Below, one piece after another: positions 3,288-35,372 of a stretch of DNA of 50,991 nucleotides. The notes beneath the pieces are model-generated. The model made no database searches. It saw only the letters and a program-made list of their open reading frames with translations, and was not told the origin of the DNA. Made by a program: the position numbers and the translations under genes. How positions within the stretch are numbered: the stretch's first letter is position 1; every line of letters begins with the position of its first letter. Source of the stretch: a virus (Duplodnaviria; Caudoviricetes); IMG/VR virus record IMGVR_UViG_3300017971_000079, positions 1 through 50,991 of that record; one strand, 5' to 3'.

Positions 3288-4342
3288 TACTCGACCCTTT
3301 CAAGCGTCTCTGTACAACCGCAATGCGGATGCGCTGACTCCCCCGGCATGTCTACGGCACCTATGTACGCGCTCTCGTACGGCTCGCCCAACTTCGCCGT
3401 CTTGCCGTCCAGCTCCAAACAAATCTCGCAAGGGTTGTCCGGGTTCCCCGTCGGCCCCGCCGTCAACCATCGCCTCCGTACCTCGGGCAGTTTTCCCGAA
3501 TCCTGCGCTATCTTCCACGCATCATTGCGCCCCTGCGCCTGCGCCGTTATCGTCTCGGTCCTCGCTATCATCTGCGCACGCTTGCCGAGCAGCTCCTCGC
3601 GATACGCATCCCCCTGCCGCCGCACCTCGTCCTCGTCGACGCCCGCCGCGCGCAACATCTCTTTTCTGTTCTGTACCGCTTTGCTCCACCTCGGAGTCAA
3701 CCCAACGTTCGCTTTTATCTCTCCGAAAATTTCCTCAGCTCGCAACCCCCGGGAGAACCCGTCGCTCAGAACGTCGGTCACAACCTCGCGTTGACTCCAC
3801 GTCAGCCCCTCCTCTATCAAGTGCGTCGCACGTTCCTCCATCCACTTTTTCGAGTAAGGGTTGATAGGTACCATCATCTCCTCGTCCGCTGCCCTTAAGC
3901 CTTCGCTAACTGCTTTCTCTATCGTCTCCTCGCCTCCACGGTCTTCGGCAGTCTCCAAACCAAATCGCATCCTCGTCTTGAACTTCGCGTTCATACGCTC
4001 CGTTGCGTCGTCGCCCGCCTCCTGCATCACTTGCGCGTACGCGCGCATGATACGCTCGCGGAACTTCTCCCAGACCTCCGACTCCGCCTCCTGCGCCACC
4101 GGTACCGCTTCGAGTACCTTGACCGCCGACCGCTCTCTAATCGCGCGCTTCACGTCACGCTCGGCCTTCGGCGTCCACATCGTTTTCAGCGCTTCCAAGA
4201 ACGCCCTCACGAACTGTCCCTCGTTCTTCCGAGCTATCTTGTACGCCTCCCTCCCCTCGGGCGTTCCAGGGTCGCGACGGTACCACGCCTTGCGCCGGCG
4301 CTTCTGTACGCGCACTAAATGGTACTGGTCAACAAACGACAA
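3287..4342 (-). CDS. Head morphogenesis / minor capsid protein (Mu gpF / SPP1 gp7-like)
   Basis: RAQMIARTE, C-x2-C and C-terminal HPHCGC motifs; directly after the portal. Confidence 0.85.
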   Translation of the reverse strand: MSFVDQYHLVRVQKRRRKAWYRRDPGTPEGREAYKIARKNEGQFVRAFLEALKTMWTPKAERDVKRAIRERSAVKVLEAVPVAQEAESEVWEKFRERIMRAYAQVMQEAGDDATERMNAKFKTRMRFGLETAEDRGGEETIEKAVSEGLRAADEEMMVPINPYSKKWMEERATHLIEEGLTWSQREVVTDVLSDGFSRGLRAEEIFGEIKANVGLTPRWSKAVQNRKEMLRAAGVDEDEVRRQGDAYREELLGKRAQMIARTETITAQAQGRNDAWKIAQDSGKLPEVRRRWLTAGPTGNPDNPCEICLELDGKTAKLGEPYESAYIGAVDMPGESAHPHCGCTETLERVE

Positions 4343-4345
4343 CGG

Positions 4346-5779: not shown

Positions 5780-5793
5780 GATGAATAACCCTT

Positions 5794-7200
5794 CTACGCG
5801 CTCGCCCGCGCAAAGTCAGTGGGCCGCGTCCTCGACCCCGTGAGAGGAATTACTATGTTAGAGATTGACCGTCGCGACAATCGAGAAAGCGCTTGTGTCA
5901 TCGCGTCACATTGATCGTCGTTTTTCGCGTTTGGAAAGCTTACCACCTCTTCGACGAACTCCCTCACCCAAGGCTTGCCCTCGGGTAGATACACGTTGCC
6001 AGCTTCGAGCAGCCCCGACACGGCGAGCAGACGCGCCTCCTTGCTTCCTACCGGTCGCACACCTACCACACCGTCGAGCTCGTGCTTGAGCGTCGCGAGC
6101 ACCGCCTCGCCGTTGGCCGCGCGCTCCACCACCTTGTCACGCGCAAGAGGATGCTTCGAGCTCATCGCGCGAATCGCATCGAGCGTCCCCGGGAAATCGA
6201 CCTTCGCACGGAACTGGTCGACGAGGTAGAAGTTCGGTTTGGCGTATCCCCATACCTGCCCGACCACGTAGGACGTGCCCACGGTGAACGTGAGGTCCCA
6301 CGATTGAATGAGTTGAGAACAGCGCGGGAGCTCGCGATACCAACGGAACCACGCGCGCTTGATTGCCCCGCCCTCAGGCGGCGACGGGTGCTGTTGGTAC
6401 AGACCGTTGAAGAGCTGCGTACCTAGCCCCTCCCCGGGTGCGAGCTTGATGCGCTGTAGGTCGTCGGCGTCAAAACGCTCGGGACAAAGCGCCTCGCCTG
6501 GAGCGCGACCGAGCGGGTCGTTGTCTTCGGCGACGGCCGGCAACGCGACATGCTGCCAGTCATCCGCATGCTCGTCCACGAGGTATCCCGTGAGGTCCTC
6601 TTCATGCCAGCGCGTCATGACCACCACGATGGAGCCACCGGGCTCTAGACGGGTGTACAAGTCCGCGTTGAACCGCTCGATAATTTTTCGACGCACCGTC
6701 GGAGAGTTCGCTTCCTCCCAGTCCTTTACCGGGTCGTCGATGATGATGAGCGAAGCCCCGCGACCGGTAACGCCGCCTTGCGCGCCAGCGGTCTTCATCC
6801 CCCCTCCGTCCACCGTCTCCCAATCACTGGTCTCGCGCTTCGCGTCGCTCACGCGGGTGGAGAGTAGCTCGTTGCGCTGGAGCTCGTCACGCACCTTGCG
6901 TCCCCAATGCGCGGCGAACGTGTCCGAGTACGACGTGAGAATCACCCGCTGTTCGGGGAACCATTCGAGGAACCACGTCGGGAGCCAGTGAGAGAACGCC
7001 TCGCTCTTGCCGTGCCGCGGTGGAGCATTGATGATGATGCGCGCGCCGCCGCGCACGATGGCTGGCTGAATCACCGACAGCAACAAATCGAGCCAACGAA
7101 ACGGACGCCACTGTCCGCGGGAGGCGGTCTGCGCAAACGTGCTTATATTGAGGCGCCAGCGCTCCTCAACCATCGCTTGCGCGTCGAGCGCGGTGTTCAA
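5794..7200 (-). CDS. terL: Terminase large subunit
   Basis: Walker A PPRHGKS, Walker B IIIDDP, MTRWH, YQQHP, nuclease SWD...DDQCDA. Confidence 0.96.
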   Translation of the reverse strand: MNTALDAQAMVEERWRLNISTFAQTASRGQWRPFRWLDLLLSVIQPAIVRGGARIIINAPPRHGKSEAFSHWLPTWFLEWFPEQRVILTSYSDTFAAHWGRKVRDELQRNELLSTRVSDAKRETSDWETVDGGGMKTAGAQGGVTGRGASLIIIDDPVKDWEEANSPTVRRKIIERFNADLYTRLEPGGSIVVVMTRWHEEDLTGYLVDEHADDWQHVALPAVAEDNDPLGRAPGEALCPERFDADDLQRIKLAPGEGLGTQLFNGLYQQHPSPPEGGAIKRAWFRWYRELPRCSQLIQSWDLTFTVGTSYVVGQVWGYAKPNFYLVDQFRAKVDFPGTLDAIRAMSSKHPLARDKVVERAANGEAVLATLKHELDGVVGVRPVGSKEARLLAVSGLLEAGNVYLPEGKPWVREFVEEVVSFPNAKNDDQCDAMTQALSRLSRRSISNIVIPLTGSRTRPTDFARASA

Positions 7201-7700
7201 TTGGGTTTCTCCGCGTTGAGTGCGTTCGCGCGGTCGACCAACTGCCGCGCGGCCTGGAGCGCTTCCTCGTCTCCAAGCAGAGCACGCAACGCCTCGCGCC
7301 GGTCGGCGAACGTCACCTCGGTACGTCCCTCGACAATGCGCCGCTCGGTGAAGCTACCGTCGAGCCGACACATGAGCTCGATAGCCTTGAGCCGCTCGAG
7401 CTTCTTCGCGCCGGGGTCGGTAGCGATTTCGAACAGGATTTTTTCGCGTGCCCGGATGCCCATGCGGTACGGCGCACCGAGCCTTTCGCGTTCGTTTTCG
7501 ATGGCCTGTATCAATCGGGGGTGGCGGAGATTTTTCGAGGCGACGGACGAAAGCGCTCTATTGTCGCCGGAGTAGCCCGCGATTTTTGCAGATTTAGTGC
7601 CATCGCCGTTGGCCTCGCCGACGAAGGCCTTGACGAATTTGAATTGCCGTTCGGTGAGCCCGGTTTCGTTGGCCGGGGCGCTGCCTGACCCAGTGTTCAT
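7197..7700 (-). CDS. terS: Terminase small subunit
   Basis: LTERQFKF..SAKIAGYS HTH typical of TerS; overlaps terL start; ATG 7700 chosen from promoter spacing. Confidence 0.85.
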   Translation of the reverse strand: MNTGSGSAPANETGLTERQFKFVKAFVGEANGDGTKSAKIAGYSGDNRALSSVASKNLRHPRLIQAIENERERLGAPYRMGIRAREKILFEIATDPGAKKLERLKAIELMCRLDGSFTERRIVEGRTEVTFADRREALRALLGDEEALQAARQLVDRANALNAEKPN

Positions 7701-7706
7701 AATTCC

Positions 7707-7736
7707 ACGGTAGGTGTGCGAGCACGAAAAAGTCAA
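7707..7736 (-). promoter_or_regulatory. Putative sigma70 promoter for a leaderless terS/virion operon transcript
   Basis: TTGACT-N18-TACCGT, then 6 nt to the ATG at 7700. Confidence 0.5.
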
Positions 7737-7804
7737 GTATGAACACAACGATATAATATATGACAAAAGACAAAGCGTAGCATTTTGATACGTACAATAG
7801 ACGG

Positions 7805-8077
7805 GTGTAACAGCGTAACAAGAGCCTGTTACATCTCTCGTTACACTCCCGAGGCAATAGTGGCGGGGCGAAAAGGGCGTTCGTAACGCCGTAACAGGCT
7901 CTTATTATCCCCCCGGACATGTGCGCCTACGCGGGCGCACGTCTTCTTTAGACGTTAGACCGCGCACGTCCATCAATCAGATATACTTACAGTCGAGACG
8001 ACGTGTCGTTATGGGACCTGCGACCGCGGCAACCCCTAGTAAAAAATATACGAAGTATAAAAAGCGTTACGTGTTAC
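7805..8077. repeat. Putative replication origin: GTAAC/GTTAC iteron cluster with 13-bp inverted repeat
   Basis: GTAAC at 7807, 7815, 7883, 7891; GTTAC at 7828, 7840, 8066, 8073; AAGAGCCTGTTAC (7820-7832) is the reverse complement of 7891-7903; lies between the divergent arms beside the primase gene. Confidence 0.55.
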
Positions 8078-8146
8078 GCCTGCGGAGCTTTTTTTGGGGG
8101 GGCAAGAGCTTGACAGCTACCCGAGGAGGTGTTACTGCTTTTTTTC

Positions 8147-8260
8147 AATGGCGCGGAGAACACAGCAGCTCGATTTTTGACGGACACCCTGCGGCGGGGA
8201 GTCGCCGACCTCTCCGGTCAGCCGTGCCATTCTCCCCGCCGCAGGGGCCGGCTTTTTTTT
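8147..8260 (+). ncRNA. Structured leader RNA / attenuator (P4 CI- or P1 C4-like architecture) before the primase-helicase
   Basis: 8147-8156 pairs with 8222-8231; 8187-8201 is perfectly complementary to 8232-8246; T8 run at 8253-8260; TTGACA at 8110-8115. Confidence 0.5.
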
Positions 8261-8275
8261 GCGGGAGGCTCTTGA

Positions 8276-10780
8276 GTGAGAAGCTTGGGCTTCACCTACT
8301 ACGTCACCGTGCATACCAATGAAGGCGAGTTGGTTACTCGTTCATGGTCGACTTGGATTGAAGTTTTAATCAAACATCAAATACGAAAAGACAAGGACGG
8401 TCCCGCGCTTGTTTTTGGTTTCATACCCTCTCATCTACCCAGGTCTAAGCGCAACACCCGGCACGCGAACGCTCTTGTACTTGACCTCGACAATGTTTCC
8501 GAGGAGATGCTAGGCGAAGTGCTCGAGCGCTTGGCTCCTTATGAGTTCGTGGCTCACTCGACACACTCGCACTTCGAGGCGGTTCAAAAAGGGCTTTGGA
8601 AACTTCGCATCATTGCCCCGCTGGCGGAGCCCGTCGCGCAAACGGACTTCCCGAAGGTCTGGAAGGCGTGGAACGAATTCACGTTACATTCGACCGACCC
8701 GGCGACTAAAGATATTTCCCGCCTCTACTACCTCCCTTCTTCTCCCGACCCTTCCGCCGTCGTCTACCTCCACAACAAAGGCGAATGGTTGCATGCGGAG
8801 AAGCATCTGCCTCTCGAAGCCACTATCCATTCTCTCGCCGATTCCGCGATGTCGGACCTGGAAGGTATTCGACGCGCGCTCAAACGCGCCGAGGGCGTCG
8901 AAGAAAAAGACCGTGAGACACTTCGAGCTCTTGCGGAAGGCCGGCCCTTCGCCGAACCCGACAGCGGAGAACGTCACGTCAATATGCGTACGTTGACATG
9001 GTGGCTCGCACGCCGCGACTCGATGCTGTCCCGCTTGGACGTAGAGGGGCTCTTCCGCGCGTCCTTGACGGCGATGCAAGAACAGTCGCCGGATGCGCCC
9101 ACGATGGACGCCACCTGGTCCGCCTACGAAACCGCCGTCGAAAAGCTCGCCGAAACCAGACACCAAAAAGCACTCAAGGCTCAACGAGAAAATACCGAAG
9201 GCCCCTACTCCCACGAAGATATGCTCCGCATCGCGGAGAAGCAGTGCTGGAAACCCGAGGAGCTCGCGAGGCGCTGGGTGGTACAAAAAGACGGTGCCGC
9301 GTGGTTCCTCGACCACAACGGAGAATACCAAGGTCCGTTCGGACGCGACGACCACCTCATGGCGTGCCTACGGTTTCTCCCACGCACCGAGGCGAGGCTG
9401 GTCGAGATAACAAAAAACGGAGTTCGCAACCGACCGCCGGCGACCGTGATAGCGGAAGTCGGAAGCCTCGCTCAAAAAACGGTCTGTGACTTGTCCGCGC
9501 AGTTTACGCGCTACGACCCGGAGACGAGCACCTTGTACGAGGCCGTGTCCCCGATACGGCGAGACCTCGTACCGACGTATCACGACACAGTGGACGATTG
9601 GCTACGCGCGATAGGCGGAAAGCACTACGAGAAATTGTGCGACTGGCTCGCGGTAGCTCCCGACCTCGACCAGATGCTTTGCGCGATTTACTTCGACGGG
9701 CCAAAGGGTGCGGGCAAATCGATGTTTGCTCACGGTGTTGCGGCGCTTTGGTCGGAGACGGCGACTCCCGGTGACATCGAGCTCTTTCTCGGTGCGTTCA
9801 ACGATACGGTTGCGATGTGCCCCCTTGTGTTCGCTGATGAGGACATGCCGAAGCATCAGACCAGGGACGTAACCGCGAAGTTGAGAGAGGAGCTCGCGAC
9901 GACCTCGAGAATTCTCAAGAGAAAATTTTTGAAACCGTCGGAGATGCGGGGCGCGATTCGGCTCTGTCTTGCGGCGAACAATGAGCTCTTGATTGCCGTG
10001 AAGAAAGCGATGACTCCCAACGACCTTGACGCCTTCGCAGAACGGTTTTTGTACATCCGCATTCCCGACAGCGCTCAGGATTATTTTTCGGAGACGGGAA
10101 GGGAGGACATCCGCAACATGCTCACTCGGGGGATAGCTGAGCATGCCCTACACCTACAAGCGACTCGCAAGATACAGAACTCCGGGAGCCGGTTCGCCGT
10201 CGGCGGCGACGTGCAAGAAATTCACCAGTTGTTTCTGACGAGCGGGCACTGGAACGGTTTGGTTTGCGAGTGGTTGGTCAAGTACCTCATGAACCCGTTG
10301 GCATACAATAACGAGAGCAACAATGCGGGTCTCGTGAGGTGTCTCTCTGACGAGGGAATGTTACTTGCGAACCCGCAAGGGCTCTCCGACAACTGGACCG
10401 CGTACATCAAAAGCGGTGTCCCGCCGTCAACTCCCGAGATTGCGACGGCGCTTCGGTCGCTGTCGGTGCCCGTGCGCGCGCAAGACGGCAGCGAGAAGCA
10501 GCAGGTGCAAAGACGCTGGCAAGGGCGCCATCACCGATACTCGGTGGTCAATATCAATGCGCTGCTCGCGTGGAGCCGTCGCAGTAATATCGGCGACCCG
10601 GCGAGCATGCTGTTCGCGCTCGGTGTCGAGGCGACGGAAGCGCAGCTCGGTCTCGGTGATGGCGACGTGCATGAGGACGGAGATGCGCCCGACAACGTGA
10701 CATTGATGCGGAGGCGCGCGCCCTCGCGCGTGCGCGAAGACGGCGGGTTAGACTACGGAGACAAGGAGGAAGAGAGATGA
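8276..10780 (+). CDS. Primase-helicase (AEP/PrimPol-type N-terminus, SF3-type NTPase)
   Basis: LDLD, HSTHSH, KLRIIAPL, DISRLYYLP primase motifs; Walker A GPKGAGKS, VFADE, AANN. Confidence 0.88.
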   Translation: MRSLGFTYYVTVHTNEGELVTRSWSTWIEVLIKHQIRKDKDGPALVFGFIPSHLPRSKRNTRHANALVLDLDNVSEEMLGEVLERLAPYEFVAHSTHSHFEAVQKGLWKLRIIAPLAEPVAQTDFPKVWKAWNEFTLHSTDPATKDISRLYYLPSSPDPSAVVYLHNKGEWLHAEKHLPLEATIHSLADSAMSDLEGIRRALKRAEGVEEKDRETLRALAEGRPFAEPDSGERHVNMRTLTWWLARRDSMLSRLDVEGLFRASLTAMQEQSPDAPTMDATWSAYETAVEKLAETRHQKALKAQRENTEGPYSHEDMLRIAEKQCWKPEELARRWVVQKDGAAWFLDHNGEYQGPFGRDDHLMACLRFLPRTEARLVEITKNGVRNRPPATVIAEVGSLAQKTVCDLSAQFTRYDPETSTLYEAVSPIRRDLVPTYHDTVDDWLRAIGGKHYEKLCDWLAVAPDLDQMLCAIYFDGPKGAGKSMFAHGVAALWSETATPGDIELFLGAFNDTVAMCPLVFADEDMPKHQTRDVTAKLREELATTSRILKRKFLKPSEMRGAIRLCLAANNELLIAVKKAMTPNDLDAFAERFLYIRIPDSAQDYFSETGREDIRNMLTRGIAEHALHLQATRKIQNSGSRFAVGGDVQEIHQLFLTSGHWNGLVCEWLVKYLMNPLAYNNESNNAGLVRCLSDEGMLLANPQGLSDNWTAYIKSGVPPSTPEIATALRSLSVPVRAQDGSEKQQVQRRWQGRHHRYSVVNINALLAWSRRSNIGDPASMLFALGVEATEAQLGLGDGDVHEDGDAPDNVTLMRRRAPSRVREDGGLDYGDKEEER

Positions 10781-11529
10781 GCTCATTTTCTCAGGCAGTT
10801 TGGAAGAGCGCGGGCTGTCCCACAGCTCCCGGCCGCGAACCGACTTCTGCCGCTGGAGCATGTGCGGTTTGCGGGGAAACGTGTGACGGAGGCTTGGTCC
10901 CCCGCAAGATCGCGCTGCCCGCGAGCTTCGCCAACTACGACATGTTGCGAGGGCCTTCGTCGGCGGGGGTCTGTGTCGCCTGCGCGTGGGCGATGGCGGG
11001 ACGTCCGCCCGACGGCTTGCGCATGTGGACGGTTGTAGCAGGCAAGGGGGCCGGAGAATGGAGCCGCGAGTACGTTGTCGGCCCGCAGCTCGGGCAAGAC
11101 GCCGTCGCTATTCACGGCAGCGACCACTCCCAGGTATTGCGGATGTTGCTCGACCCACCCGACGCTGAGTGGGGAGTTGCGCTTGCAGACAGCGGCAAGC
11201 TCCATGTCGTTCCGTGGGGTCGGTTGAACGCGACACAAGCACAGTGGACGGTTCGGCTCGAAGCGCTGGATGTCGTGGCGGAGGCCGGAAGATTTCGAGA
11301 GGTAGTGAGAGCCGCGGCGAAGTTACTGGCTGCGGGTTTTCTGCGGTCGCACATTGCGGAGTGCGATACCAGCCCTGCGTTGCTCAATAAGTGTGGGGCC
11401 GCGGTGTGGCGAGAGAACATCGAGACAATGAAAAAGTACGGCCGGGGGGGAGCAGGAAGACTGGCGTTGTTCTTACTCGGTCAATCGGCAAGGAAAAAAA
11501 CAAAGGAGGTCTGGAATGAGTGGTGTTGA
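10777..11529 (+). CDS. csf1: Type IV CRISPR-associated large subunit, Csf1 (Cas8-like)
   Basis: CAVCG...CVACAW zinc motifs, LLDPP, SGKLH; first gene of a coupled csf cluster. Confidence 0.72.
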   Translation: MSSFSQAVWKSAGCPTAPGREPTSAAGACAVCGETCDGGLVPRKIALPASFANYDMLRGPSSAGVCVACAWAMAGRPPDGLRMWTVVAGKGAGEWSREYVVGPQLGQDAVAIHGSDHSQVLRMLLDPPDAEWGVALADSGKLHVVPWGRLNATQAQWTVRLEALDVVAEAGRFREVVRAAAKLLAAGFLRSHIAECDTSPALLNKCGAAVWRENIETMKKYGRGGAGRLALFLLGQSARKKTKEVWNEWC

Positions 11530-11887
11530 GAACGACGCTGCTATCACCGACGTTGCGGTGGAATTCGCGGCGGAAATCATGGGAGCGGTCAACAAGGACG
11601 TGGTGAAGCCGCGGGACTGGTGGTCGAGATGCCGAGCTGCGCTCGAAGCGGCGGCGTCGGCGTCCGAGACGTGGGCGCAGTTCGTTTCGAGGTTCGGACA
11701 GAAGATGCAGATAGAGAGCATTCCCTCCGAGATCGCGACAGACGTGGCATTGCTCGAAGCGCATCTGATAGAAAACAAATGGTGGCCGCGGTTCCGCTAT
11801 CTCGTGCAACGAGATGCGTTGTACATCTCCGCGATGGCCCAAGTCCGGCGCAAAGAGCGCTTCGGGAAAAAAGCGAAGGGAGAGTGA
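11516..11887 (+). CDS. cas11: Small helical subunit (Cas11-like) of type IV-B
   Basis: 123-aa helical-looking protein between csf1 and csf2, the usual IV-B position. Confidence 0.6.
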   Translation: MSGVENDAAITDVAVEFAAEIMGAVNKDVVKPRDWWSRCRAALEAAASASETWAQFVSRFGQKMQIESIPSEIATDVALLEAHLIENKWWPRFRYLVQRDALYISAMAQVRRKERFGKKAKGE

Positions 11888-11888
11888 C

Positions 11889-12746
11889 ATGGAATTTTCA
11901 ACGATAGAAGTACGAGCTAAAGCTCTCGACCCGATTCATCATGGCGCGGGCACGGCCGGGAACACGTCGCTTCTCAGGGTGCAAGAGGTGTTGTTGCCGG
12001 ATGGTGAAATGGCGAGGGTTCCGTTTGTCAGCGGAAACTCAATCAAGCATCGGCTACGAGAGGCGATGGTCCACCACGCTGTCAACGTGCTGGATGTGCC
12101 GGATCACTCGATTTCGACAGCAGTAGTCAACCTGCTCTATTCGGGTGGCGCGTTGACGGCGACAGGGGCGAACGTAGATCTGGCGCTCCATCGGGAATTT
12201 CAGCGGCTTTGGCCCGCTCTCGGGTTGTGCGGCTACGCGGCTGGCAACACGATGGTCCAGAGCAAGCTTGCGGTGTCGCACTGGCATCTGGTCTGCTCCG
12301 AGAACTTCTGGCGTCTGCCGACCGACCTTGCGGCGCACAAGATGTCCGAGATGAGCGCGGCGGCGTTGAGGAGCAGCGATTTCGGTACGCGAATGTCTGC
12401 GGCGACGCGTGCGGGAGTGCGAGGGAAGATCGTCGAAGGTGAAGAGCCTGGGGAGTCGGGACAGATGATTTACGACTTCGAAACCATCTCGGCGGGGGCG
12501 CTGCTCTACGGGTCGATTCGCATCACGAACGCGACCGAGATGGAGCGCGCGGCGCTGGCGGCGGGTATCGCGACGTTGCAGGCGAAAGAAAAACACGTCT
12601 GGCAGATAGCGGCAAAGACGAGTGTAGGGTTCGGGCGCTGTCGTGTGAAGCTGCGAGGGTTGCCGGTCGCGGACGTGGAAAATTACGAAGAGCATTTGCG
12701 GGCGAATCGGGACGCGGCGTTGGCAATTCTCGACAAGGTGATGTGA
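11889..12746 (+). CDS. csf2: Type IV backbone subunit Csf2 (Cas7 family)
   Basis: PIHHG, VPFVSGNSIKHRLR, LLYSGG, QMIYDFETISAGA, C-terminal G-loop AKTSVGFGR. Confidence 0.85.
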   Translation: MEFSTIEVRAKALDPIHHGAGTAGNTSLLRVQEVLLPDGEMARVPFVSGNSIKHRLREAMVHHAVNVLDVPDHSISTAVVNLLYSGGALTATGANVDLALHREFQRLWPALGLCGYAAGNTMVQSKLAVSHWHLVCSENFWRLPTDLAAHKMSEMSAAALRSSDFGTRMSAATRAGVRGKIVEGEEPGESGQMIYDFETISAGALLYGSIRITNATEMERAALAAGIATLQAKEKHVWQIAAKTSVGFGRCRVKLRGLPVADVENYEEHLRANRDAALAILDKVM

Positions 12747-13414
12747 TGGATGTCTTCGAGGTTGTCGCGACGATGGAGGAGCCCGTGTGTGTCGTCAATC
12801 CGGTAGTGCATCTCGATGGCGTGCTGGCGTTCGGGGCGTACTTGCAACTGGACGAGGAACGCAGGAGGGCGCTGCCTCCGATATCGTCGGAGTGGGCGGA
12901 AGATTTCGAGCTGCCGTTGGCGCGGTGGGAGCAGGAGGCGCGCGTACCGGAGCCGTTCGACGAGCGGTTATGTTCGCGGCCGGGGGTGGTGTGGGGGTGG
13001 AAGTGCTCGGCGGCGCGATTCGAGCAGGCGCTAGAGGGCGTCCACGAGGTGCGGAAGAAACCGGCACAAGCGGAGATGCTCAGGTATGCGGATGCAAAAA
13101 AGCTGAAGACCGGTGCGGGACCGGTGCGAGCGAGAGACCGGAAGTTCCCGACGGTGTTTGCAAGGGAGATTCGGTGGTGTGTCGAGGGAGACGCAGAGCG
13201 GGTGTTGGCGCTGGCTCGGGGTGTACCTGGTATCGGAAAACTCGTCGGTCATGGGATGGGACGCGTGGCGAGTTGGCGTGCGGAGGAAGCGAGAGAAGAT
13301 TGGAGCATGTGGAGGACGTTGCCGGATGCGGAGTCGCCGTTGTTGTACGGAATCAGGGCACCGTATCATCATCCGTCGCGGCAAGTGTTCGCGAAAGAGC
13401 CTGAGGGGCTTTGA
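12746..13414 (+). CDS. csf3: Type IV Csf3 (Cas5 family)
   Basis: HLDGVLA, LPL, WKCS, G-loop IGKLVGHGMGRV..W, RAPYHH. Confidence 0.82.
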   Translation: MDVFEVVATMEEPVCVVNPVVHLDGVLAFGAYLQLDEERRRALPPISSEWAEDFELPLARWEQEARVPEPFDERLCSRPGVVWGWKCSAARFEQALEGVHEVRKKPAQAEMLRYADAKKLKTGAGPVRARDRKFPTVFAREIRWCVEGDAERVLALARGVPGIGKLVGHGMGRVASWRAEEAREDWSMWRTLPDAESPLLYGIRAPYHHPSRQVFAKEPEGL

Positions 13415-14643
13415 TGCGTGCATGCTTCGTTGAGGCGTGTGACGATAAAGATGCCGGATCTATCGGCGCGTATTACGTAGCGACGCATGCGAGGCGCGCT
13501 GGGCACCAGATCGATTTCAGCCGTACAACACAAAACGGGTACGATGTCGAATTGATTTCCGTGCATCATTGTATGGACTTTCTGCGATTAGCGCACCTGC
13601 CGAAGCGAGCGCCTTTGCGGATAGTGGGAGGCCACGCGATGCTGTCAAACCCGCGCCCGGTAATTCCGTTTGCCGATATCGTTTTTCGTGGCGAAGCTGA
13701 AAGCTGGATAGGCGGTGCGCTTGATGCCCTGGACGGTGAAAAAGATGCTGCGTGTTTGCAGGGGGTGCCGGGGGTTATCGTGACTAAAAATTGGATTAAG
13801 GGGGCTCATCTGCCGGACGTTGTTTTTGAAAGACCGTTGCCTTCAAATCCGCCCTATCTGAATTGGGCGGGGACGAAATCGGCGGCATGGTACTTGGAAA
13901 TAGCGAGGGGGTGCCCCTTTCGTTGTGCGTTTTGTGAGCTAGGCAACAGCACCCCCTTTCGCATTTATCCCAAAGAACACGTTTTCGAAGCGCTTAAAGG
14001 ATTAGACACAACCCTTGCACGTAAGATCAACTTGTTCGCGCCGGACGAAACTAGTCACCCTGCTTACACGGAGATATACGAGCACCTGGAACGAAAAGGG
14101 TATAGTGCCGCGTTTTCGTCGATGCGTATCGAATCCGTCATGAAGCGCCATCCGAAGCTCAAACCTAATGTACTAATTCGCGTGGGCATCGATGGGCTTT
14201 CAGAACGTGTGCGCACGGAAGTCAACAAGCCCATTACGGATGATCAGATAGTAGAGTACTTCAAAGAGTGGACCGAGAGAGGCCATGTCAATTTCAAAAC
14301 TTTTTTTATCTTTAGTTATCCTGGGGAAACCGAAGCTGATTTCCGAGGCTTCGAGATTTTGATGCGGAGAGTTTTCCAAATCCGATTGCGGAAAAACTGT
14401 TCGTTGCGGATCAAATGGACTCCATTTATCCCGCAACCATGCACGCCCCTTGGCTCCAGCCTGCCGCGCTACAATCGAGACATTGCCGCGCGTATCCGCA
14501 GGTGGCATGCGTTGCACAAGGAGCCCGTGCGCACCCCGGGATGGTGGGTGACATGTGACGGGATGATGTCTGAGAAAGCGCACGCGCTTCAGTGCCGATT
14601 GACGCATGGCGATGAGGAGACGCTGATAGATGCGCGTCCATAA
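13414..14643 (+). CDS. Radical SAM protein with probable cobalamin-binding-like N-terminal domain
   Basis: EIARGCPFRCAFC (CxxxCxxC), IVGGH, GEAE, FIPQPCTP; TGATG-coupled to csf3. Confidence 0.85.
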   Translation: MRACFVEACDDKDAGSIGAYYVATHARRAGHQIDFSRTTQNGYDVELISVHHCMDFLRLAHLPKRAPLRIVGGHAMLSNPRPVIPFADIVFRGEAESWIGGALDALDGEKDAACLQGVPGVIVTKNWIKGAHLPDVVFERPLPSNPPYLNWAGTKSAAWYLEIARGCPFRCAFCELGNSTPFRIYPKEHVFEALKGLDTTLARKINLFAPDETSHPAYTEIYEHLERKGYSAAFSSMRIESVMKRHPKLKPNVLIRVGIDGLSERVRTEVNKPITDDQIVEYFKEWTERGHVNFKTFFIFSYPGETEADFRGFEILMRRVFQIRLRKNCSLRIKWTPFIPQPCTPLGSSLPRYNRDIAARIRRWHALHKEPVRTPGWWVTCDGMMSEKAHALQCRLTHGDEETLIDARP

Positions 14644-14783
14644 CTATCCGCAGGAGGCGCTGACGACTGCCGCGCTCAGCGATTGCCTGGCGGTGCGACG
14701 TCTACGCTGGCTCGTGCGTGTGATGCACACCGAGGACCGACGCGTACTGTTTCTCGGAGCGGCGTCGCGGTTGCGGAGGAGAG

Positions 14784-15047
14784 ATGAACTACGGAGATAC
14801 CACGACATCTGCGGAGAGTTACGGGCGGTCATCGATAGAGCGAGCACTCCGAGCGGCGTGGCGGCTGGTCGAGGCGCGGAGGCCGCTGCTGCTCCACGGC
14901 GAGCTGCTGCCGGGGGTGCCACGTCGGACGGTGGACAGGACGGTGGGTCGGCTGCTCCGGGCGGGGTGGCCGGTGGAGGTGAGCTACGACGACGAGGGCA
15001 GAGCGTGGGTATCGCTGGGCCGTGGTTTGTGGCGCCGCATGCGGTGA
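14784..15047 (+). CDS. Hypothetical protein, possible winged HTH
   Basis: Strong GGAGG RBS; VPRRTVDRTVGRLLRAGWPV resembles a wHTH. Confidence 0.45.
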   Translation: MNYGDTTTSAESYGRSSIERALRAAWRLVEARRPLLLHGELLPGVPRRTVDRTVGRLLRAGWPVEVSYDDEGRAWVSLGRGLWRRMR

Positions 15048-15277
15048 GGCAATACCAGGTGAGAGCGAGGAGACGGTACGGCTACGAGCGGGCATTAGGC
15101 GAGCTCGTGGCGATTGCACGGAGGGCGAGGAGGGTGAAGCCCCTGCCCACAGGTGCCGTGCTGTATCGGACGGGACGGCCGGATAGGTGGAGACTCGTAG
15201 TCAGGGAGGACGGTCCCGGCCTGCCTCAGCTCGTCACCGTACTCAGAGGACACGACAGCGCAAAATCTGCGGGGTAG
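15005..15277 (+). CDS. Hypothetical protein (C-terminal part of the 14630-15277 frame), possible RelE-like fold
   Basis: FVAPHAVRQY...RLVV...LVTVL pattern; start uncertain. Confidence 0.4.
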   Translation: MGIAGPWFVAPHAVRQYQVRARRRYGYERALGELVAIARRARRVKPLPTGAVLYRTGRPDRWRLVVREDGPGLPQLVTVLRGHDSAKSAG

Positions 15278-15278
15278 T

Positions 15279-15294
15279 ATGACATTGGTGTCAT
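15279..15294. promoter_or_regulatory. Palindrome ATGACA-N4-TGTCAT, candidate enhancer-binding-protein site
   Basis: Perfect 6-bp inverted repeat ~145 bp upstream of the sigma54-type motif, with an AT-rich spacer. Confidence 0.45.
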
Positions 15295-15437
15295 GTTGCT
15301 ACAAAAGTACGATATTGTTATTGTTTCCGAGGCGTGCTAGTAGATAGCTAGTGATTCTAGGGATTTGCTATGAAATTTTTACGGGGCAGGGTTCGGAAGG
15401 TGCCGCGAAATCATTGAGAATTCCGGTCGTAGCAGGC

Positions 15438-15453
15438 TGGCACGGACGTTGCA
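15438..15453 (+). promoter_or_regulatory. Sigma54 (-24/-12) promoter
   Basis: TGGCACG-GACG-TTGCA matches TGGCACG-N4-TTGCW; intergenic; predicted +1 near the ATG at 15466. Confidence 0.75.
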
Positions 15454-15465
15454 TTGTTATAGGGC

Positions 15466-15876
15466 ATGGCACGCGGACAAAAAGAGAAGGACTGGCAAGG
15501 AATGAATTGGATTCGCCAGTCCTCCCGCCTGGCCGTCTATCTCCGCGACGGCCTGGCGTGCGCCTATTGCGGCGCCGCGGTCGAGGACGGGGCTACCCTG
15601 AGCCTCGACCACCTTGTTCCCCGGTCCCGCGGGGGGAACCATCGGGTCACCAATCTGGTGACCTGCTGCAAGCGATGCAACAGCTCACGCGGCAATCGCA
15701 GCGTGAGGGCGTTTTGCCGCGCCGTGGCCGAGTACCTCGGCCACGGAATCGTGGCGGGGGAAATAGAGCGCCACGTACGCGCATGTGCGCGGCGCTCGAT
15801 GACGGCACCGCGCCGCGAGGCGCGGGAACTGATTGCCCGCCGGGGCTCGGTGGCCCGGGTACTGGCGGCGATGTAA
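15466..15876 (+). CDS. HNH endonuclease
   Basis: CAYCG..LDHLVPRSRGG..NLVTCCKRCN. Confidence 0.92.
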   Translation: MARGQKEKDWQGMNWIRQSSRLAVYLRDGLACAYCGAAVEDGATLSLDHLVPRSRGGNHRVTNLVTCCKRCNSSRGNRSVRAFCRAVAEYLGHGIVAGEIERHVRACARRSMTAPRREARELIARRGSVARVLAAM

Positions 15877-15907
15877 CAACGGGGCGGCCGACCCCGACCC
15901 CGACCAC

Positions 15908-15969
15908 TGGCCGAAACGGGGCTCCAGCCCCGTCGCCGCAGGGTGCCGCCTGCGGCCTGATGAGGCAGG
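15908..15969 (+). ncRNA. Hammerhead ribozyme (type II permutation)
   Basis: GAAA 15913-16; stem III ACGGGGC/GCCCCGT; GTC 15932-34; stem I GCCGCAGG/CCTGCGGC; CTGATGA 15957-63; open stem II GCC/GGC. Confidence 0.85.
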
Positions 15970-15987
15970 CAAAAAAAGGAGGACAAA

Positions 15988-16203
15988 ATGAAGGCACACG
16001 ACGTGGGAATCATTTGGGACGGAACAAACGAGGGGTGGTATCTGAGATACTCCACGGACGAGCAGAATGCTCTAGACTCCTCGATGCACATGCCTGACGA
16101 CGCACACCTGAGCGATGGCGAGCTGTACGCGGCCGCGCTCACGGAGGCGTGCTACTGCGGCATTGAGTTGCCGACCATCGAGGACATCAGCATCGAGCGA
16201 TAA
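15988..16203 (+). CDS. Hypothetical acidic protein
   Basis: AGGAGG RBS, 71 aa. Confidence 0.7.
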   Translation: MKAHDVGIIWDGTNEGWYLRYSTDEQNALDSSMHMPDDAHLSDGELYAAALTEACYCGIELPTIEDISIER

Positions 16204-16246
16204 CCCCGACCGGTTTGCGCGGGTTCGACTCCCGCGCGGGGTCCCA
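16203..16246 (+). ncRNA. tRNA-like minihelix (acceptor stem, T-arm, CCA)
   Basis: ACCCCG/CGGGGT stacked on CGCGGG-TTCGACT-CCCGCG, then C-CCA; intergenic. Confidence 0.65.
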
Positions 16247-16267
16247 AGGCAAACAACGGAGGCAAAA

Positions 16268-16867
16268 ATGTGCAACCCAGCAACATTCCTGATTACGCGG
16301 TCCCGTGTGTTGTGGTCTGTTGACCACGACTCGCACGAAGAACTCATTCGAGAGGCCGGGCTCAGCGACGGCCTGCGCGGCGGAGATTTCGTGCGGGCCG
16401 AGATTTCCCCGCCCGACAACGACTACTCGCTACCGCTGGGGCAGTGGGTGTATCGCACAGACCAGGACACCGTGCCCGACTGGTACGACGAGCGCGAGGC
16501 CGAGATCGCGGCCTGCGCCGAGCTGCCCGCATGGGCAGAGCACCATCTCGTCCGCGATGGCCAGGTCGAGGTGCGCGACGGGCAGAGCCGCGTGCTGCTC
16601 GGTGATGCGCGCGCCGAAGTTCACGGCGGCGTGGTGCGGTGCCACGGCGAGTCCCGCGCCGAGGTGCACGGCGGCTGGGTGGGCTGCTTCGGCCAATCCC
16701 GCGCCGAGGTGCACGGCGGCGAGGTGCGGTGCCACGGCGAGTCCCGCGCCGAGGTGCACGGCGGCGTGGTGGAGTGCTACGGCGAGTCCCACGCCGAGGT
16801 GCACGGCGGCGTGGTGCGGTGCGACGATCAGGCGACAATGGATGACAGGAGGCCCCCCAATGTGTAA
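16268..16867 (+). CDS. Hypothetical protein with C-terminal 15-aa tandem repeats (beta-helix-like)
   Basis: GGAGG RBS before ATG 16268; five AEVHGGxVxC-containing units. Confidence 0.75.
   Translation: MCNPATFLITRSRVLWSVDHDSHEELIREAGLSDGLRGGDFVRAEISPPDNDYSLPLGQWVYRTDQDTVPDWYDEREAEIAACAELPAWAEHHLVRDGQVEVRDGQSRVLLGDARAEVHGGVVRCHGESRAEVHGGWVGCFGQSRAEVHGGEVRCHGESRAEVHGGVVECYGESHAEVHGGVVRCDDQATMDDRRPPNV
16610..16825 (+). repeat. 45-nt coding tandem repeat, about 5 copies
   Basis: Recurrent gccgaggtgcacggcggc at 45-nt spacing. Confidence 0.9.
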
Positions 16868-17063
16868 CGAGGAATTCAACGCGGATTTGCGGGCCTGGAT
16901 GGCCCGCTACAAGGTGCCCGCGCAGGAGCTCGCGAGGCACCTCGGCATGAGCAGGTACACGCTGCACCGGCGGATGACCGGGGCGAGCGAGTGGCGCGAA
17001 CTGGAGCGCCGCGAGATTGCGCGCCTGCGGGCGGCGACGGAAACGTGTCGGAGAGTGCCGTGA
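16860..17063 (+). CDS. Small Cro/XRE-like HTH protein
   Basis: QELARHLGMSRYTLHRRMTG; AGGAGG RBS. Confidence 0.75.
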   Translation: MCNEEFNADLRAWMARYKVPAQELARHLGMSRYTLHRRMTGASEWRELERREIARLRAATETCRRVP

Positions 17064-17812
17064 ATATCTCTCCGACGCAGCTCGTCAAGTACCGGCAGTG
17101 CGCCCGGAAAATCGGCTACGAGTACGTCGAGGGGATCAAGGCGCCCTCGACGCCGAAGCAGGAGTTCGGCCGCGAGGTACACAAGCACCTCGAGCGCTGG
17201 CTGCGTGACGGCGTGCTCCCCGACAAGTCGCCGGCGGGGCTCGTCGCGAAGCAGGGCATCGGACGCTGGTTGCCTCCTCCGGGACCGGAGCTGCTCGTCG
17301 AGCACACGTGGTCGATACCGCTCGAGTGCGGCGTCGTGCTCTCCGGGATCGCTGATTGCGTCCAGCCCCCCCGCGGTGGCGAGCTGCCGCTCGTCATCGA
17401 CCACAAATCGACCTCGGGTCTCAAATGGGCGCTGACTCCCGAACAGCTCAAGACCGACGTACAGTCGCTTTTGTACGCGACGTGGGCGGGGCTCGAGTTC
17501 GGCGCGCGCGTGGTAGAGGTGCGCTGGATATACTACTCCGCCAGCAACCCGCGCAACGGAGGCCCGCGCAAGCCCACGGGCGTGAAGCCGGTGGGCGCGT
17601 CCATCGTGTTGCCCGACGCTGTGGCGCTCATGAGAGGCGTCCTACGTGACGTGAGGGAGATAGTGAGGATACGTGCCGAGCAGTACAGCGGAGCGCAGCT
17701 CCCCCCTTCCCCGGCGTCCTGCGACCTATACGAAGGATGCCAACATAGAGCACGCTGCGGCGACCTCGGGCAGTGGGCGCGAATCGCCGCCAAGATGGAC
17801 AAAAAATACTGA
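17060..17812 (+). CDS. PD-(D/E)XK exonuclease (Cas4/RecB-like)
   Basis: SPTQL..C, FGREVH, GIAD, VIDHKS, QSLLY, three C-terminal Cys. Confidence 0.85.
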   Translation: MNISPTQLVKYRQCARKIGYEYVEGIKAPSTPKQEFGREVHKHLERWLRDGVLPDKSPAGLVAKQGIGRWLPPPGPELLVEHTWSIPLECGVVLSGIADCVQPPRGGELPLVIDHKSTSGLKWALTPEQLKTDVQSLLYATWAGLEFGARVVEVRWIYYSASNPRNGGPRKPTGVKPVGASIVLPDAVALMRGVLRDVREIVRIRAEQYSGAQLPPSPASCDLYEGCQHRARCGDLGQWARIAAKMDKKY

Positions 17813-34792: not shown

Positions 34793-34797
34793 CGGAG

Positions 34798-35371: not shown

Positions 35372-35372
35372 C

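What the first reader, a model, noticed from the sequence alone, without database searches (positions are those of the whole stretch)
10777..14643. Array-less type IV-B effector operon with a radical SAM gene instead of cysH, coupled to the primase
Seen: primase-helicase, csf1, cas11-like, csf2, csf3 and a radical SAM gene joined by overlapping or abutting start/stop codons; no cas1/2, cas6, dinG, cysH or CRISPR array recognised anywhere in the complete genome. The radical SAM gene looks AT-richer than its neighbours. Established: IV-B loci occur on mobile elements, usually lack arrays, usually carry a CysH-like gene, and have unresolved function. Inference: the enzyme slot is exchangeable and the complex may scaffold or direct nucleic-acid modification, or sequester host crRNAs.
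Basis: partly seen in the sequence, partly recalled or inferred. Interest (0 to 1): 0.8.

Follow-up and report, generated by a model that had tools for sequence, protein, structure and literature searches.

The report
Phage type IV-B with radical-SAM partner
A complete genome of an uncultured tailed phage carries an array-less type IV-B CRISPR-like gene set in which a radical SAM enzyme sits where the usual CysH-like helper enzyme would be, an exchange seen repeatedly among related phages, and this gives a testable clue to what this unexplained CRISPR subtype does.

Summary
Observation confirmed. The window is a complete 50,991-bp virus record. On the + strand, primase-helicase, csf1, cas11, csf2, csf3 and a radical SAM (rSAM) gene are joined by overlapping or abutting start/stop codons. 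No CRISPR array, CysH, DinG/Csf4, Cas1 or Cas6_C was found. The rSAM gene is AT-richer than its neighbours (52.8% against 59-63% GC).

The rSAM belongs to a compact, mostly viral family. In 25 of 26 fetched loci it lies beside csf genes, in at least three gene orders.

A relative with 78%-identical Csf2 (L003) has the same primase-csf operon. It carries a CysH-like gene plus a SpoU-like methylase gene where the window has the rSAM, and DNA homology breaks about 20 nt before the end of csf3.

On a Csf2 tree of 96 cassettes, CysH and rSAM exchange at least 10 times.

The rSAM model resembles B12-type rSAM methylases. The function is not shown. My best guess is modification of a nucleic acid held by the Csf complex.

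My literature searches found no description of this rSAM link. This scan has already reported the same variant on other DNA.

The parts
8276..10780 (+). Primase-helicase gene; its TGA stop overlaps the csf1 ATG (ATGA). The true start codon is uncertain.
   Evidence: PHROG DNA helicase 2.9e-13, DNA primase 3.7e-12 and helicase-primase 7.4e-7. Pfam DUF5906 1.1e-5, 26.5 bits against a cut-off of 27.6. Junction read. Homologue in L003 at 57% identity, directly abutting csf1.
10777..11529 (+). csf1, the type IV large subunit (Cas8-like), with an N-terminal CxxC...CxxC motif.
   Evidence: PADLOC typeIV_Cas8 3.7e-25; TIGR03114 3.6e-8, below its cut-off. Alignment A4. dN/dS against L003 about 0.13.
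11516..11887 (+). cas11-like small subunit.
   Evidence: PADLOC typeIV_Cas11 1.7e-8. 69% identical to the L003 homologue. dN/dS about 0.21.
11889..12746 (+). csf2 (Cas7-like backbone subunit). The ORF opens at 11814, but ATG 11889 follows a GGGAGAG ribosome-binding site and matches the relatives.
   Evidence: PADLOC typeIV_Cas7 1.4e-83, matching residues 27-309 of the long ORF. 78% identical to L003. dN/dS about 0.06.
12743..13414 (+). csf3 (Cas5-like subunit); start at GTG 12743 or ATG 12746.
   Evidence: PADLOC typeIV_Cas5 1e-31; TIGR03116 1.6e-9, below its cut-off. dN/dS about 0.09.
13414..14643 (+). Radical SAM enzyme with an N-terminal Rossmann (B12-binding-like) domain. It occupies the slot that holds CysH in the relatives.
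   Evidence: PF04055 2.4e-12, above its cut-off; PF19864 7.3e-6, below its cut-off. C168/C172/C175 invariant. AF2 model pLDDT 90.7. Foldseek best matches MgmA 8.7e-18, MtaB, TsrM, AprD4, CysS and MiaB. GC 52.8%.
13395..14832 (.). The segment with no DNA homology to the close relative L003. This is the exchanged cassette: rSAM here, CysH plus a SpoU-like ORF in L003 at 6901-8473.
   Evidence: blastn window against L003: 9528-13394 aligns with 3032-6900 at 67.8% identity, and 14833-15258 aligns with 8474-8899 at 71.7%.
14630..15277 (+). Downstream ORF(s) of unknown function, conserved in L003 on the far side of the exchanged segment. The 215-aa frame is probably not one simple gene.
   Evidence: tblastn to L003 at 57% identity over 200 aa. 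No Pfam, PADLOC, NCBIfam or PHROG match. Codon-position counts favour an 87-aa ORF (14784-15047) in another frame for the middle part.

Best explanation
This is a phage-borne, array-less, subtype IV-B-like CRISPR-Cas effector cassette (csf1-cas11-csf2-csf3). It is transcribed with the phage's early replication genes. Its accessory-enzyme slot holds a member of a compact, mostly viral family of radical SAM enzymes that have a B12-binding-like N-terminal domain. The usual CysH-like PP-loop enzyme is absent.

Shown here:
- the gene identities;
- the tight operon structure;
- purifying selection on the csf genes;
- the near-exclusive linkage of this rSAM family to csf genes;
- a clean difference of the enzyme cassette between the window and a close relative, with the direction of the exchange unresolved;
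- many CysH/rSAM exchanges across the Csf2 tree.

Inferred, not shown:
- The four Csf proteins form an RNA-bound, type III-like filament, as in the solved Mycobacterium IV-B complex.
- The enzyme encoded next to csf3 works on or with that complex.
- It chemically modifies a nucleic acid or nucleotide held by the complex. With the rSAM this would be radical chemistry, most likely methylation-type. With CysH it would be ATP-dependent adenylation, sometimes together with a SpoU-like methylase.
- In a phage, the likely use is counter-defence or competition with other mobile elements early in infection.

I give the identity and exchangeability about 0.9, and the nucleic-acid modification mechanism about 0.35.
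For: Typing and operon
- HMM typing of all four Csf proteins and of the rSAM.
- Start/stop overlaps at every junction.
- dN/dS against L003 is 0.06-0.21 for csf1, cas11, csf2 and csf3. dS is saturated, so the ratios are rough.

The rSAM family
- 189 homologues at E<=1e-5, the listed ones 48-60% identical.
- About 35 clusters at 50% identity score above the general B12-rSAM plateau among 1.84 billion representatives.
- The nearest Atlas clusters are 93-100% viral.

Linkage to csf genes
- Of the 26 loci fetched with the rSAM alone (20 viral, 6 from MAGs), 25 hold at least one csf gene. csf3 is in 24, csf2 in 23 and csf1 in 22. The rSAM sits after csf3, or between csf1 and csf3.
- PADLOC models confirm Csf1, Csf2, Csf3 or Cas11 in four of these divergent loci.
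- No other gene family recurs in more than 4 of 24 loci.
- Distant rSAMs, about 23% identical, in Streptomyces phage SF3 and plasmid pSTRVI02 have no annotated csf neighbours. My Csf HMMs also found none there.

Exchange
- L003 has the same primase-csf1-cas11-csf2-csf3 operon, followed by PAPS_reduct 4e-9. DNA homology ends at 13394 and resumes at 14833.
- L032 (a divergent rSAM) and L033 (CysH) share 51%-identical Csf2.
- The Csf2 tree of 96 rows (74 CysH, 22 rSAM) needs 14 label changes. Branches with SH-aLRT >=95 force at least 10 of them. The window and L003 are sisters at 100.

Enzyme class
- AF2 model with pLDDT 90.7. The best Foldseek matches are cobalamin-type rSAM enzymes and methylthiotransferases.
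- L005 carries a second rSAM with a Pfam B12-binding domain between csf3 and the family rSAM.

Hint towards RNA
- A SpoU-like (SPOUT) methylase ORF lies next to cysH in 5 CysH-type loci, L003 among them.

Published work
- The solved IV-B complex is a Csf2/Cas11 filament on heterogeneous RNA (PMC7937560, passages).
- CasCysH lacks the catalytic cysteine and has been proposed to AMPylate nucleic acid bound by the complex (PMC8175902, passages).
Against: - No experiment or computation here shows that the rSAM touches the Csf complex, or what its substrate is.
- The best structural match, MgmA, methylates a protein, so a protein or small-molecule substrate is just as compatible.
- Cobalamin binding is not shown. 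PF02310 does not match the window's protein, and PF19864 is below its cut-off.
- The curated NCBIfam Csf equivalogs are matched far below their cut-offs. The PADLOC models that match best carry a 'CAS-IV-A' label in their descriptions. Assignment to subtype IV-B therefore rests on gene content and on clustering with CysH-linked cassettes. I built no tree with reference IV-A and IV-B sequences.
- One rSAM locus, L022, holds a partial gene and no csf gene.
- The direction of the exchange between the window and L003 is unresolved. Both the rSAM (GC3 57%) and the L003 CysH (GC3 58%) are AT-richer than their neighbours.
- In the Csf2-seeded survey, all 9 rSAM-type loci were the seed contigs themselves, or in one case (L077) a near-duplicate of a seed contig. 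None of the 92 newly found loci (the 9 rSAM-type loci and L034 excluded) had an rSAM. The variant is therefore a minority.
- The CysH labels rest on an HMM built here. Only 3 of the CysH proteins were checked against Pfam.
Confidence: 0.7

Rival explanations
1. The rSAM is linked to the Csf cassette, but it acts on a protein or a small molecule and not on nucleic acid. It might modify a Csf subunit or a host defence protein, or make a modified nucleotide or signal molecule.
For: The best Foldseek match is MgmA, a protein glutamine C-methylase (8.7e-18). Other matches act on small molecules: AprD4, CysS, TokK and OxsB. A 2026 paper says CasCysH is proposed to AMPylate substrates or to make second messengers (PMC13676074, passage). 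Distant rSAM relatives sit among nucleotide and sugar metabolism genes.
Against: The partner is an RNA-binding Cas7/Cas11 filament (PMC7937560). MiaB and MtaB, which modify tRNA, are matched nearly as well. A SpoU-like RNA methylase ORF accompanies CysH in 5 loci. None of this is decisive.
Confidence: 0.2
2. The cassette is a guide-RNA sponge, a form of anti-CRISPR. It captures host crRNAs or other small guide RNAs, and the enzyme is dispensable or only inactivates the captured RNA.
For: This hypothesis has been published for IV-B. It rests on the lack of an array, the non-specific RNA loading and the negative co-occurrence with other CRISPR systems (10.1101/780106 and PMC7937560, passages). 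The window is a phage with no array of its own.
Against: The same papers call this unlikely or incomplete, because it does not explain the nearly invariant enzyme gene. Here the slot is refilled by another enzyme, not lost: of the 92 loci with room to judge, 87 carry CysH or an rSAM.
Confidence: 0.12
3. It is a guide-dependent interference system that borrows crRNAs from a host array or from an array elsewhere, with the enzyme as effector.
For: One rSAM-type relative, L005, has a mini-array of three 37-nt repeats about 7.5 kb downstream. A virus-borne IV-B with a mini-array has been published (PMC10848311, passages). One Csf2 relative, L053, has a Cas6 gene after csf3.
Against: The complete window genome has no array and no Cas6_C match. 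Published RNA sequencing of a IV-B complex found no crRNA enrichment (PMC7937560).
Confidence: 0.1
4. The rSAM is an unrelated phage accessory gene that happens to sit downstream of csf3.
For: Its base composition differs from its neighbours, which suggests separate acquisition.
Against: 25 of 26 family loci carry csf genes in several gene orders, including a position between csf1 and csf3. The start codon overlaps the csf3 stop. The gene occupies exactly the CysH slot of the nearest relative.
Confidence: 0.03

Closest known systems
Subtype IV-B CRISPR-Cas (csf1-cas11-csf2-csf3 plus CasCysH), e.g. the Mycobacterium sp. JS623 Csf complex, and the locus I found in Skermania phage SPI1 (KR011061)
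   Same: The same four effector genes in the same order. No array, adaptation genes, Cas6 or DinG. Carried on a mobile element. An enzyme gene follows csf3 directly.
   Different: The enzyme is a radical SAM protein, not a PP-loop/PAPS-reductase-like CysH. No CysH exists anywhere in the genome. The cassette is translationally coupled to a phage primase-helicase.
Cobalamin-type (class B) radical SAM enzymes: MgmA (9ccb), TsrM (6wte), CysS, TokK, OxsB
   Same: An N-terminal Rossmann domain followed by a radical SAM barrel with CxxxCxxC. These are the best Foldseek matches, E 8.7e-18 to 1e-8, TM about 0.55-0.64. NCBIfam B12-rSAM families match weakly.
   Different: Only 12-18% identical. All curated family scores are far below their cut-offs. 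Cobalamin binding is untested, and the substrate is unknown.
MiaB/MtaB/RimO methylthiotransferases (radical SAM enzymes acting on tRNA or ribosomal protein)
   Same: The overall two-domain fold is matched at E 1e-13 to 1e-8.
   Different: There are no conserved cysteines apart from the CxxxCxxC triad, so there is no auxiliary cluster site. No TRAM domain was detected. That these two features define the family is recalled knowledge.
Virus-borne type IV-B with CysH (Bathyarchaeia 'Fuxiviridae' viruses; PMC10848311)
   Same: A type IV-B effector set inside a virus genome, proposed to act in counter-defence or in conflicts between mobile elements.
   Different: Those viruses keep CysH and carry a mini-array. 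This phage has neither.
Type IV-A with the CasDinG helicase
   Same: A Csf effector complex that lacks its own nuclease and relies on a subtype-specific accessory enzyme (passages).
   Different: IV-A has an array, Cas6/Csf5 and DinG, and lacks Cas11. None of these apply here.

Membership tests
Subtype IV-B CRISPR-Cas | Csf1, Csf2 (Cas7) and Csf3 (Cas5) effector genes | tested here: met
   PADLOC typeIV_Cas8 3.7e-25, typeIV_Cas7 1.4e-83, typeIV_Cas5 1e-31. The NCBIfam equivalogs match only below their cut-offs.
Subtype IV-B CRISPR-Cas | Cas11-like small subunit gene between csf1 and csf2 | tested here: met
   PADLOC typeIV_Cas11 1.7e-8 for 11516-11887.
Subtype IV-B CRISPR-Cas | No DinG/Csf4 helicase, no Cas6/Csf5, no adaptation genes | tested here: met
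   No match to TIGR03117, PF01881 or PF01867 in the whole record. Cas2 and other Cas6 models were not searched.
Subtype IV-B CRISPR-Cas | No associated CRISPR array | tested here: met
   TRF and the direct-repeat search over all 50,991 bases. Rfam at gathering thresholds found no CRISPR repeat family.
Subtype IV-B CRISPR-Cas | Adjacent cysH-like (PAPS reductase family) gene; published passages call it 'typical' and 'nearly invariant' | tested here: not met
   No PF01507 match in the genome. The slot after csf3 holds a radical SAM gene.
Subtype IV-B CRISPR-Cas | Csf2 falls in the IV-B clade | tested here: inconclusive
   Csf2 is sister to a CysH-linked cassette and sits among 74 CysH-linked Csf2 sequences. 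No reference IV-A, IV-C or IV-D sequences were in the tree, and the best PADLOC models carry 'CAS-IV-A' in their descriptions.
Radical SAM superfamily | CxxxCxxC cluster motif and a radical SAM core fold | tested here: met
   PF04055 at 47.8 bits, cut-off 29.5. C168/C172/C175 invariant in 21 sequences. Foldseek matches to many rSAM structures.
Class B (cobalamin-dependent) radical SAM enzymes | N-terminal cobalamin-binding Rossmann domain that binds cobalamin | tested here: inconclusive
   A Rossmann-like N-domain is modelled and superposes on MgmA and TsrM. PF19864 scores 26 bits, below its cut-off of 29, and PF02310 gives no hit on this protein. One family member has PF02310 on record. Binding itself cannot be tested here.
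MiaB/RimO methylthiotransferases | Three N-terminal cysteines for an auxiliary Fe-S cluster, and a C-terminal TRAM domain (recalled definition) | tested here: not met
   No invariant or nearly invariant cysteine outside the CxxxCxxC triad. No TRAM match. TIGR00089 and TIGR01125 score far below their cut-offs.

The most novel reading that the evidence does not exclude
Type IV-B Csf complexes are CRISPR-derived carriers for interchangeable nucleic-acid-modifying enzymes. The enzyme can be an adenylating PP-loop enzyme, sometimes with a SPOUT methylase, or a B12-type radical SAM methylase. Phages use these carriers during early replication to mark or disable RNA or DNA. On this reading the rSAM/CysH exchange reflects different chemistry for one task, perhaps chosen by host physiology, since radical SAM enzymes need anoxic conditions.
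Probability: 0.3. Interest if true: 0.85.

Novelty: new variant of a known kind. Interest (0 to 1): 0.7.

Why it matters
The function of subtype IV-B and of its CysH-like partner is still described as unknown in a 2026 paper (PMC13676074, passage). A second, chemically unrelated enzyme family lives almost only beside csf genes and has exchanged with CysH at least 10 times. This shows that the slot is under selection to hold an enzyme, and that the two enzymes probably serve one task.

That narrows the hypotheses. A pure RNA sponge does not need an enzyme. It also offers natural matched pairs for experiments, such as the window and L003, whose Csf proteins are 58-78% identical. Radical SAM products, for example methylated nucleosides, should be easier to detect by mass spectrometry than a transient AMPylation.

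The variant was found only in metagenomic viral contigs and MAGs. It was absent from GenBank phages and PLSDB plasmids, which may be why surveys of complete genomes missed it.

Tried and rejected
- Megablast of 8276-15277 against GenBank phages: no match.
- tblastn of Csf2 against phages found only Skermania phage SPI1, which turned out to have a canonical csf1-cas11-csf2-csf3-cysH locus annotated as hypothetical proteins.
- tblastn of the rSAM against phages and plasmids gave only distant hits: at most 24% identity over most of the length, and 32% over a short stretch. The two I inspected, SF3 and pSTRVI02, lie among nucleotide and sugar metabolism genes with no annotated csf genes, and my Csf HMMs found none there.
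I used the search for related loci instead.
- The full Csf2 alignment A2 was too divergent for the search for related loci. I used the sub-alignments A3, A6, A7 and A8.
- Complex prediction with Csf1 + Csf3 + rSAM as partner: no verdict, score 0.00 against a mark of 0.32, controls not run. This is neither for nor against binding.
- General primase coupling rejected. The primase HMM hit only the window and L003 among the 29 sequences searched (28 loci plus the window).
By eye in alignment A4, the window's Csf1 ends ...KEVWNEWC with no obvious motif. I did not pursue it.
- Fused Cas11 in the long Csf2 proteins of the csf2-csf1 gene orders. PADLOC Cas7 models cover only residues from about 130 to the end, and no Cas11 model matches the extension, so this stays a guess.
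- Direction of the window/L003 exchange: not resolvable. The rSAM tree leaves the window's rSAM unplaced, with no starred clade holding it. Both enzymes have low GC3.
- Promoter and terminator scan of 7000-17000: counts no higher than in shuffles, so uninformative.
- No tRNA genes were found.
- Literature searches that found no paper linking radical SAM to type IV: plus term look-ups inside papers. The co-mentions that I checked were unrelated. PMC10979853 was seen only in a search listing.

Full report
WHAT THE WINDOW IS. The window is a whole virus record of 50,991 bases with direct terminal repeats, estimated 100% complete. A script found a 123-bp exact terminal repeat. Structural genes lie on the minus strand. 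An early replication block lies on the plus strand: primase-helicase, an exonuclease (16991-17812), a helicase (19590-21254), a DNA polymerase (24184-26133) and a DNA methyltransferase (28180-28824). No near-identical record exists among GenBank phages.

THE OBSERVATION.
- PADLOC models match csf1 (10777-11529, 3.7e-25), cas11 (11516-11887, 1.7e-8), csf2 (1.4e-83) and csf3 (12743-13414, 1e-31).
- The curated NCBIfam Csf equivalogs match only weakly, at 29-38 bits against cut-offs of 130-140. These are divergent Csf proteins.
- The csf2 ORF opens at 11814. The HMM match, the relatives and a ribosome-binding site all point to ATG 11889.
- The sixth gene (13414-14643) is a radical SAM protein: PF04055 at 47.8 bits against a cut-off of 29.5, with a CxxxCxxC triad that is invariant across 21 relatives.
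- Every junction from the primase to the ORF after the rSAM is an overlap or a 1-nt gap.
- The rSAM is indeed AT-richer: GC 52.8% and GC3 57.2%, against 58.9-62.8% and 68-73% for the csf genes.
- No array was found. There is no match to CysH, Csf4/DinG, Cas1 or Cas6_C anywhere in the genome. Cas2 and other Cas6 models were not searched.

THE rSAM FAMILY AND ITS NEIGHBOURS. The rSAM has 189 homologues at E<=1e-5 in the 5.8-billion-protein collection. Apart from the window's own protein (P0001, 100%), the 120 listed ones are 48-60% identical and come almost entirely from metagenomes. A profile search of 1.84 billion cluster representatives shows a compact family. About 35 representatives, some of them fragments, score 138-654 bits. 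Below them lies a plateau of general B12-type rSAM proteins near 130 bits. The nearest Atlas clusters are 93-100% viral (a lead only).

I fetched DNA around relatives using the rSAM alone as query. This gave 20 viral contigs and 6 MAG contigs. The MAG titles name Oscillospiraceae, Peptococcaceae, Armatimonadota, Spirochaetaceae, Anaerolinea and Nitrospinia. Two pairs are near-duplicates: L005/L027 and L006/L007.

HMMs iterated from the window's proteins found csf3 in 24, csf2 in 23 and csf1 in 22 of the 26 loci. At least one csf gene is present in 25. The exception, L022, holds only a partial rSAM. L017, L025 and L028 are short contigs cut at the cassette.

The gene orders differ:
- csf1-cas11-csf2-csf3-rSAM, as in the window;
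- csf2-csf1-rSAM-csf3;
- csf2-csf1-csf3-rSAM;
- a form with a second B12-binding rSAM gene between csf3 and the family rSAM.

Independent PADLOC models confirmed Csf1, Csf2, Csf3 or Cas11 in L005, L009, L011 and L013. No other gene family recurs in more than 4 of 24 loci. Distant rSAMs of about 23% identity in Streptomyces phage SF3 and plasmid pSTRVI02 have no csf neighbours. The link is therefore specific to this family.

THE EXCHANGE WITH CysH. The closest relative, L003, is a 9-kb viral contig whose Csf2 is 78% identical. It has the same primase-csf1-cas11-csf2-csf3 run. After csf3 it carries a PAPS_reduct (CysH-like) gene (4e-9) and then a SpoU-like ORF. DNA homology between the two runs from 9528 to 13394, about 20 nt before the csf3 stop. 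It breaks there and resumes at 14833. The csf genes of the pair are under purifying selection, with dN/dS 0.06-0.21, although dS is saturated.

A second pair behaves the same way. L032 has a divergent 513-aa rSAM, 26% identical to the window's. L033 has CysH, and their Csf2 proteins are 51% identical. Skermania phage SPI1 carries a canonical CysH-type locus.

I then searched viral contigs with three Csf2 sub-alignments and fetched 102 loci. By in-session HMMs, 78 have CysH and 9 have the rSAM. Ten are cut right after the csf genes, and 5 have room but neither enzyme. The 9 rSAM loci are the seed contigs themselves, or in one case (L077) a near-duplicate of a seed contig, so no new rSAM-type locus turned up. 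The rSAM variant is a minority. The CysH labels rest on an HMM seeded with two Pfam-confirmed proteins, and a third was confirmed later.

A Csf2 tree of 96 distinct rows (74 CysH, 22 rSAM) needs 14 changes of enzyme label. Branches with SH-aLRT >=95 force at least 10 of them. Shuffled labels need 20.1 on average, and none of 500 shuffles was as low. I left out rows with no enzyme call, Csf2 fragments under 230 residues, and duplicates. Sampling is biased, because the rSAM rows came from an rSAM-seeded search. The count therefore shows repeated exchange, not its rate. The window and L003 are sisters at 100% support in both trees. In the rSAM tree the csf2-csf1-order group holds together (97/98), which suggests some co-descent. 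The window's rSAM is unplaced, so the direction of the exchange here is open.

WHAT KIND OF ENZYME. The AlphaFold2 model is confident (pLDDT 90.7, pTM 0.87). It has an N-terminal Rossmann-like domain and a radical SAM barrel. The best Foldseek matches are:
- MgmA (8.7e-18);
- MtaB;
- TsrM;
- AprD4;
- CysS;
- MiaB;
- TokK;
- OxsB.

Outside the CxxxCxxC triad there are no conserved cysteines. That argues against a methylthiotransferase-type auxiliary cluster (recalled definition). It leaves a cobalamin-type methylase-like enzyme as the best guess. Cobalamin binding is not shown.

HOW IT MOST LIKELY WORKS. By homology with the solved IV-B complex, a Csf2/Cas11 filament on heterogeneous RNA (PMC7937560, passages), the four Csf proteins should form an RNA-bound filament. 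A published proposal has CasCysH, which lacks the catalytic cysteine, AMPylate nucleic acid bound by the complex (PMC8175902, passages).

The slot is kept filled: 87 of the 92 loci with room to judge carry CysH or an rSAM. It is filled by either of two unrelated enzyme families, and in 5 CysH-type loci a SpoU-like methylase ORF sits next to cysH. SpoU enzymes methylate RNA ribose (recalled). I therefore favour an enzyme that modifies nucleic acid held by the complex. This step is inference. A protein or small-molecule substrate fits the structural matches equally well. A complex prediction gave no verdict and is not used as evidence.

KNOWN OR NEW. Published passages describe IV-B as typically or nearly invariably linked to cysH. 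The main text of the 2025 classification paper contains neither 'radical' nor 'CysH'. Searches pairing radical SAM with type IV terms returned only unrelated co-mentions. Supplements are closed, so tables there may list such loci. Earlier notes of this scan report the same rSAM-for-CysH variant in other phage genomes. I reached the linkage and the exchange before reading them, and my results agree with them.

What this window adds:
- a complete genome;
- a matched CysH-type relative with a mapped breakpoint;
- a direct count of exchanges on a Csf2 tree;
- the primase coupling, which is shared only with L003.

LIMITS. There is no experimental evidence. The host is unknown. Subtype assignment was made without reference sequences.

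Noticed in passing
window 15909-15974 (+): A type II hammerhead ribozyme match (Rfam RF02276, 53.4 bits against a gathering score of 37, E 2.8e-8, full model length). It lies 33 nt after the stop of an HNH endonuclease gene (15466-15876; PF14279 1e-13).
   Followed up: no
window 14630-15277 (+): The 215-aa ORF after the rSAM is probably not one plain gene. Its middle is low-complexity and overlaps an 87-aa ORF (14784-15047) in another frame that looks like a winged-helix protein. Window/L003 mismatches fall mostly on that ORF's third codon positions (29 against 16 and 15). From 15048 on, they follow the 215-aa frame (36 against 18 and 9).
   Followed up: partly
L003 7652-8296; L046 6349-6795; L131 8128-8541; L134 and L135 7555-7977: A small SpoU-like (SPOUT) methylase ORF lies next to cysH in five CysH-type cassettes: PF00588 1.8e-7 in L131, 1.9e-4 in L046 and 7.8e-3 in L003. 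There is none in the rSAM-type loci or in the window. By eye, the L003 copy also has a CX5R-like motif upstream.
   Followed up: partly
L005 8616-10019 (same as L027); a similar gap in L010: A second radical SAM gene with a Pfam B12-binding domain (PF02310 1.7e-8) and its own CxxxCxxC lies between csf3 and the family rSAM. Some cassettes therefore carry two rSAM enzymes.
   Followed up: partly
L005 18793-18973 (same as L027): Three exact copies of a 37-nt repeat ending in GAAAC, spaced 71-73 nt apart, about 7.5 kb downstream of the rSAM. This is a CRISPR-like mini-array on a contig that is both an IMG/VR record and part of a Peptococcaceae MAG contig.
   Followed up: partly
L011, L012, L013, L015, L016, L018, L019, L023, L029 (csf2 genes): In the loci with csf2-csf1 order, Csf2 carries an N-terminal extension of about 125 residues, and no separate cas11 was found. 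PADLOC Cas7 models cover only the rest, and no Cas11 model matches the extension. A fused small subunit is a guess.
   Followed up: partly
L032 8697-10238 (same contig as L035): A divergent 513-aa radical SAM (PF19864 5.1e-15, PF04055 2.7e-7), 26% identical to the window's, sits after csf3 in a cassette whose nearest relatives (L033, SPI1) carry CysH.
   Followed up: partly
L053 7721-9075: One Csf2 relative has neither CysH nor an rSAM. After csf3 come a 237-aa protein of no known family and a Cas6 (PF10040 1.1e-13).
   Followed up: no
window 16599-16826 (+), inside ORF 16115-16867: About 4.8 tandem copies of a 45-nt unit encoding a 15-residue protein repeat (roughly SRAEVHGGVVRCHGE). It is not a CRISPR array.
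   Followed up: no
L002 (Skermania phage SPI1, KR011061, record 32609-36242): A cultured actinophage carries a complete csf1-cas11-csf2-csf3-cysH locus, all annotated as hypothetical proteins.
   Followed up: yes
L022 3741-4571: This is the only rSAM-family locus without csf genes. It holds a partial rSAM (residues 215-405) directly after a glycine-codon-rich repeat region that also occurs 3.5 kb upstream.
   Followed up: no
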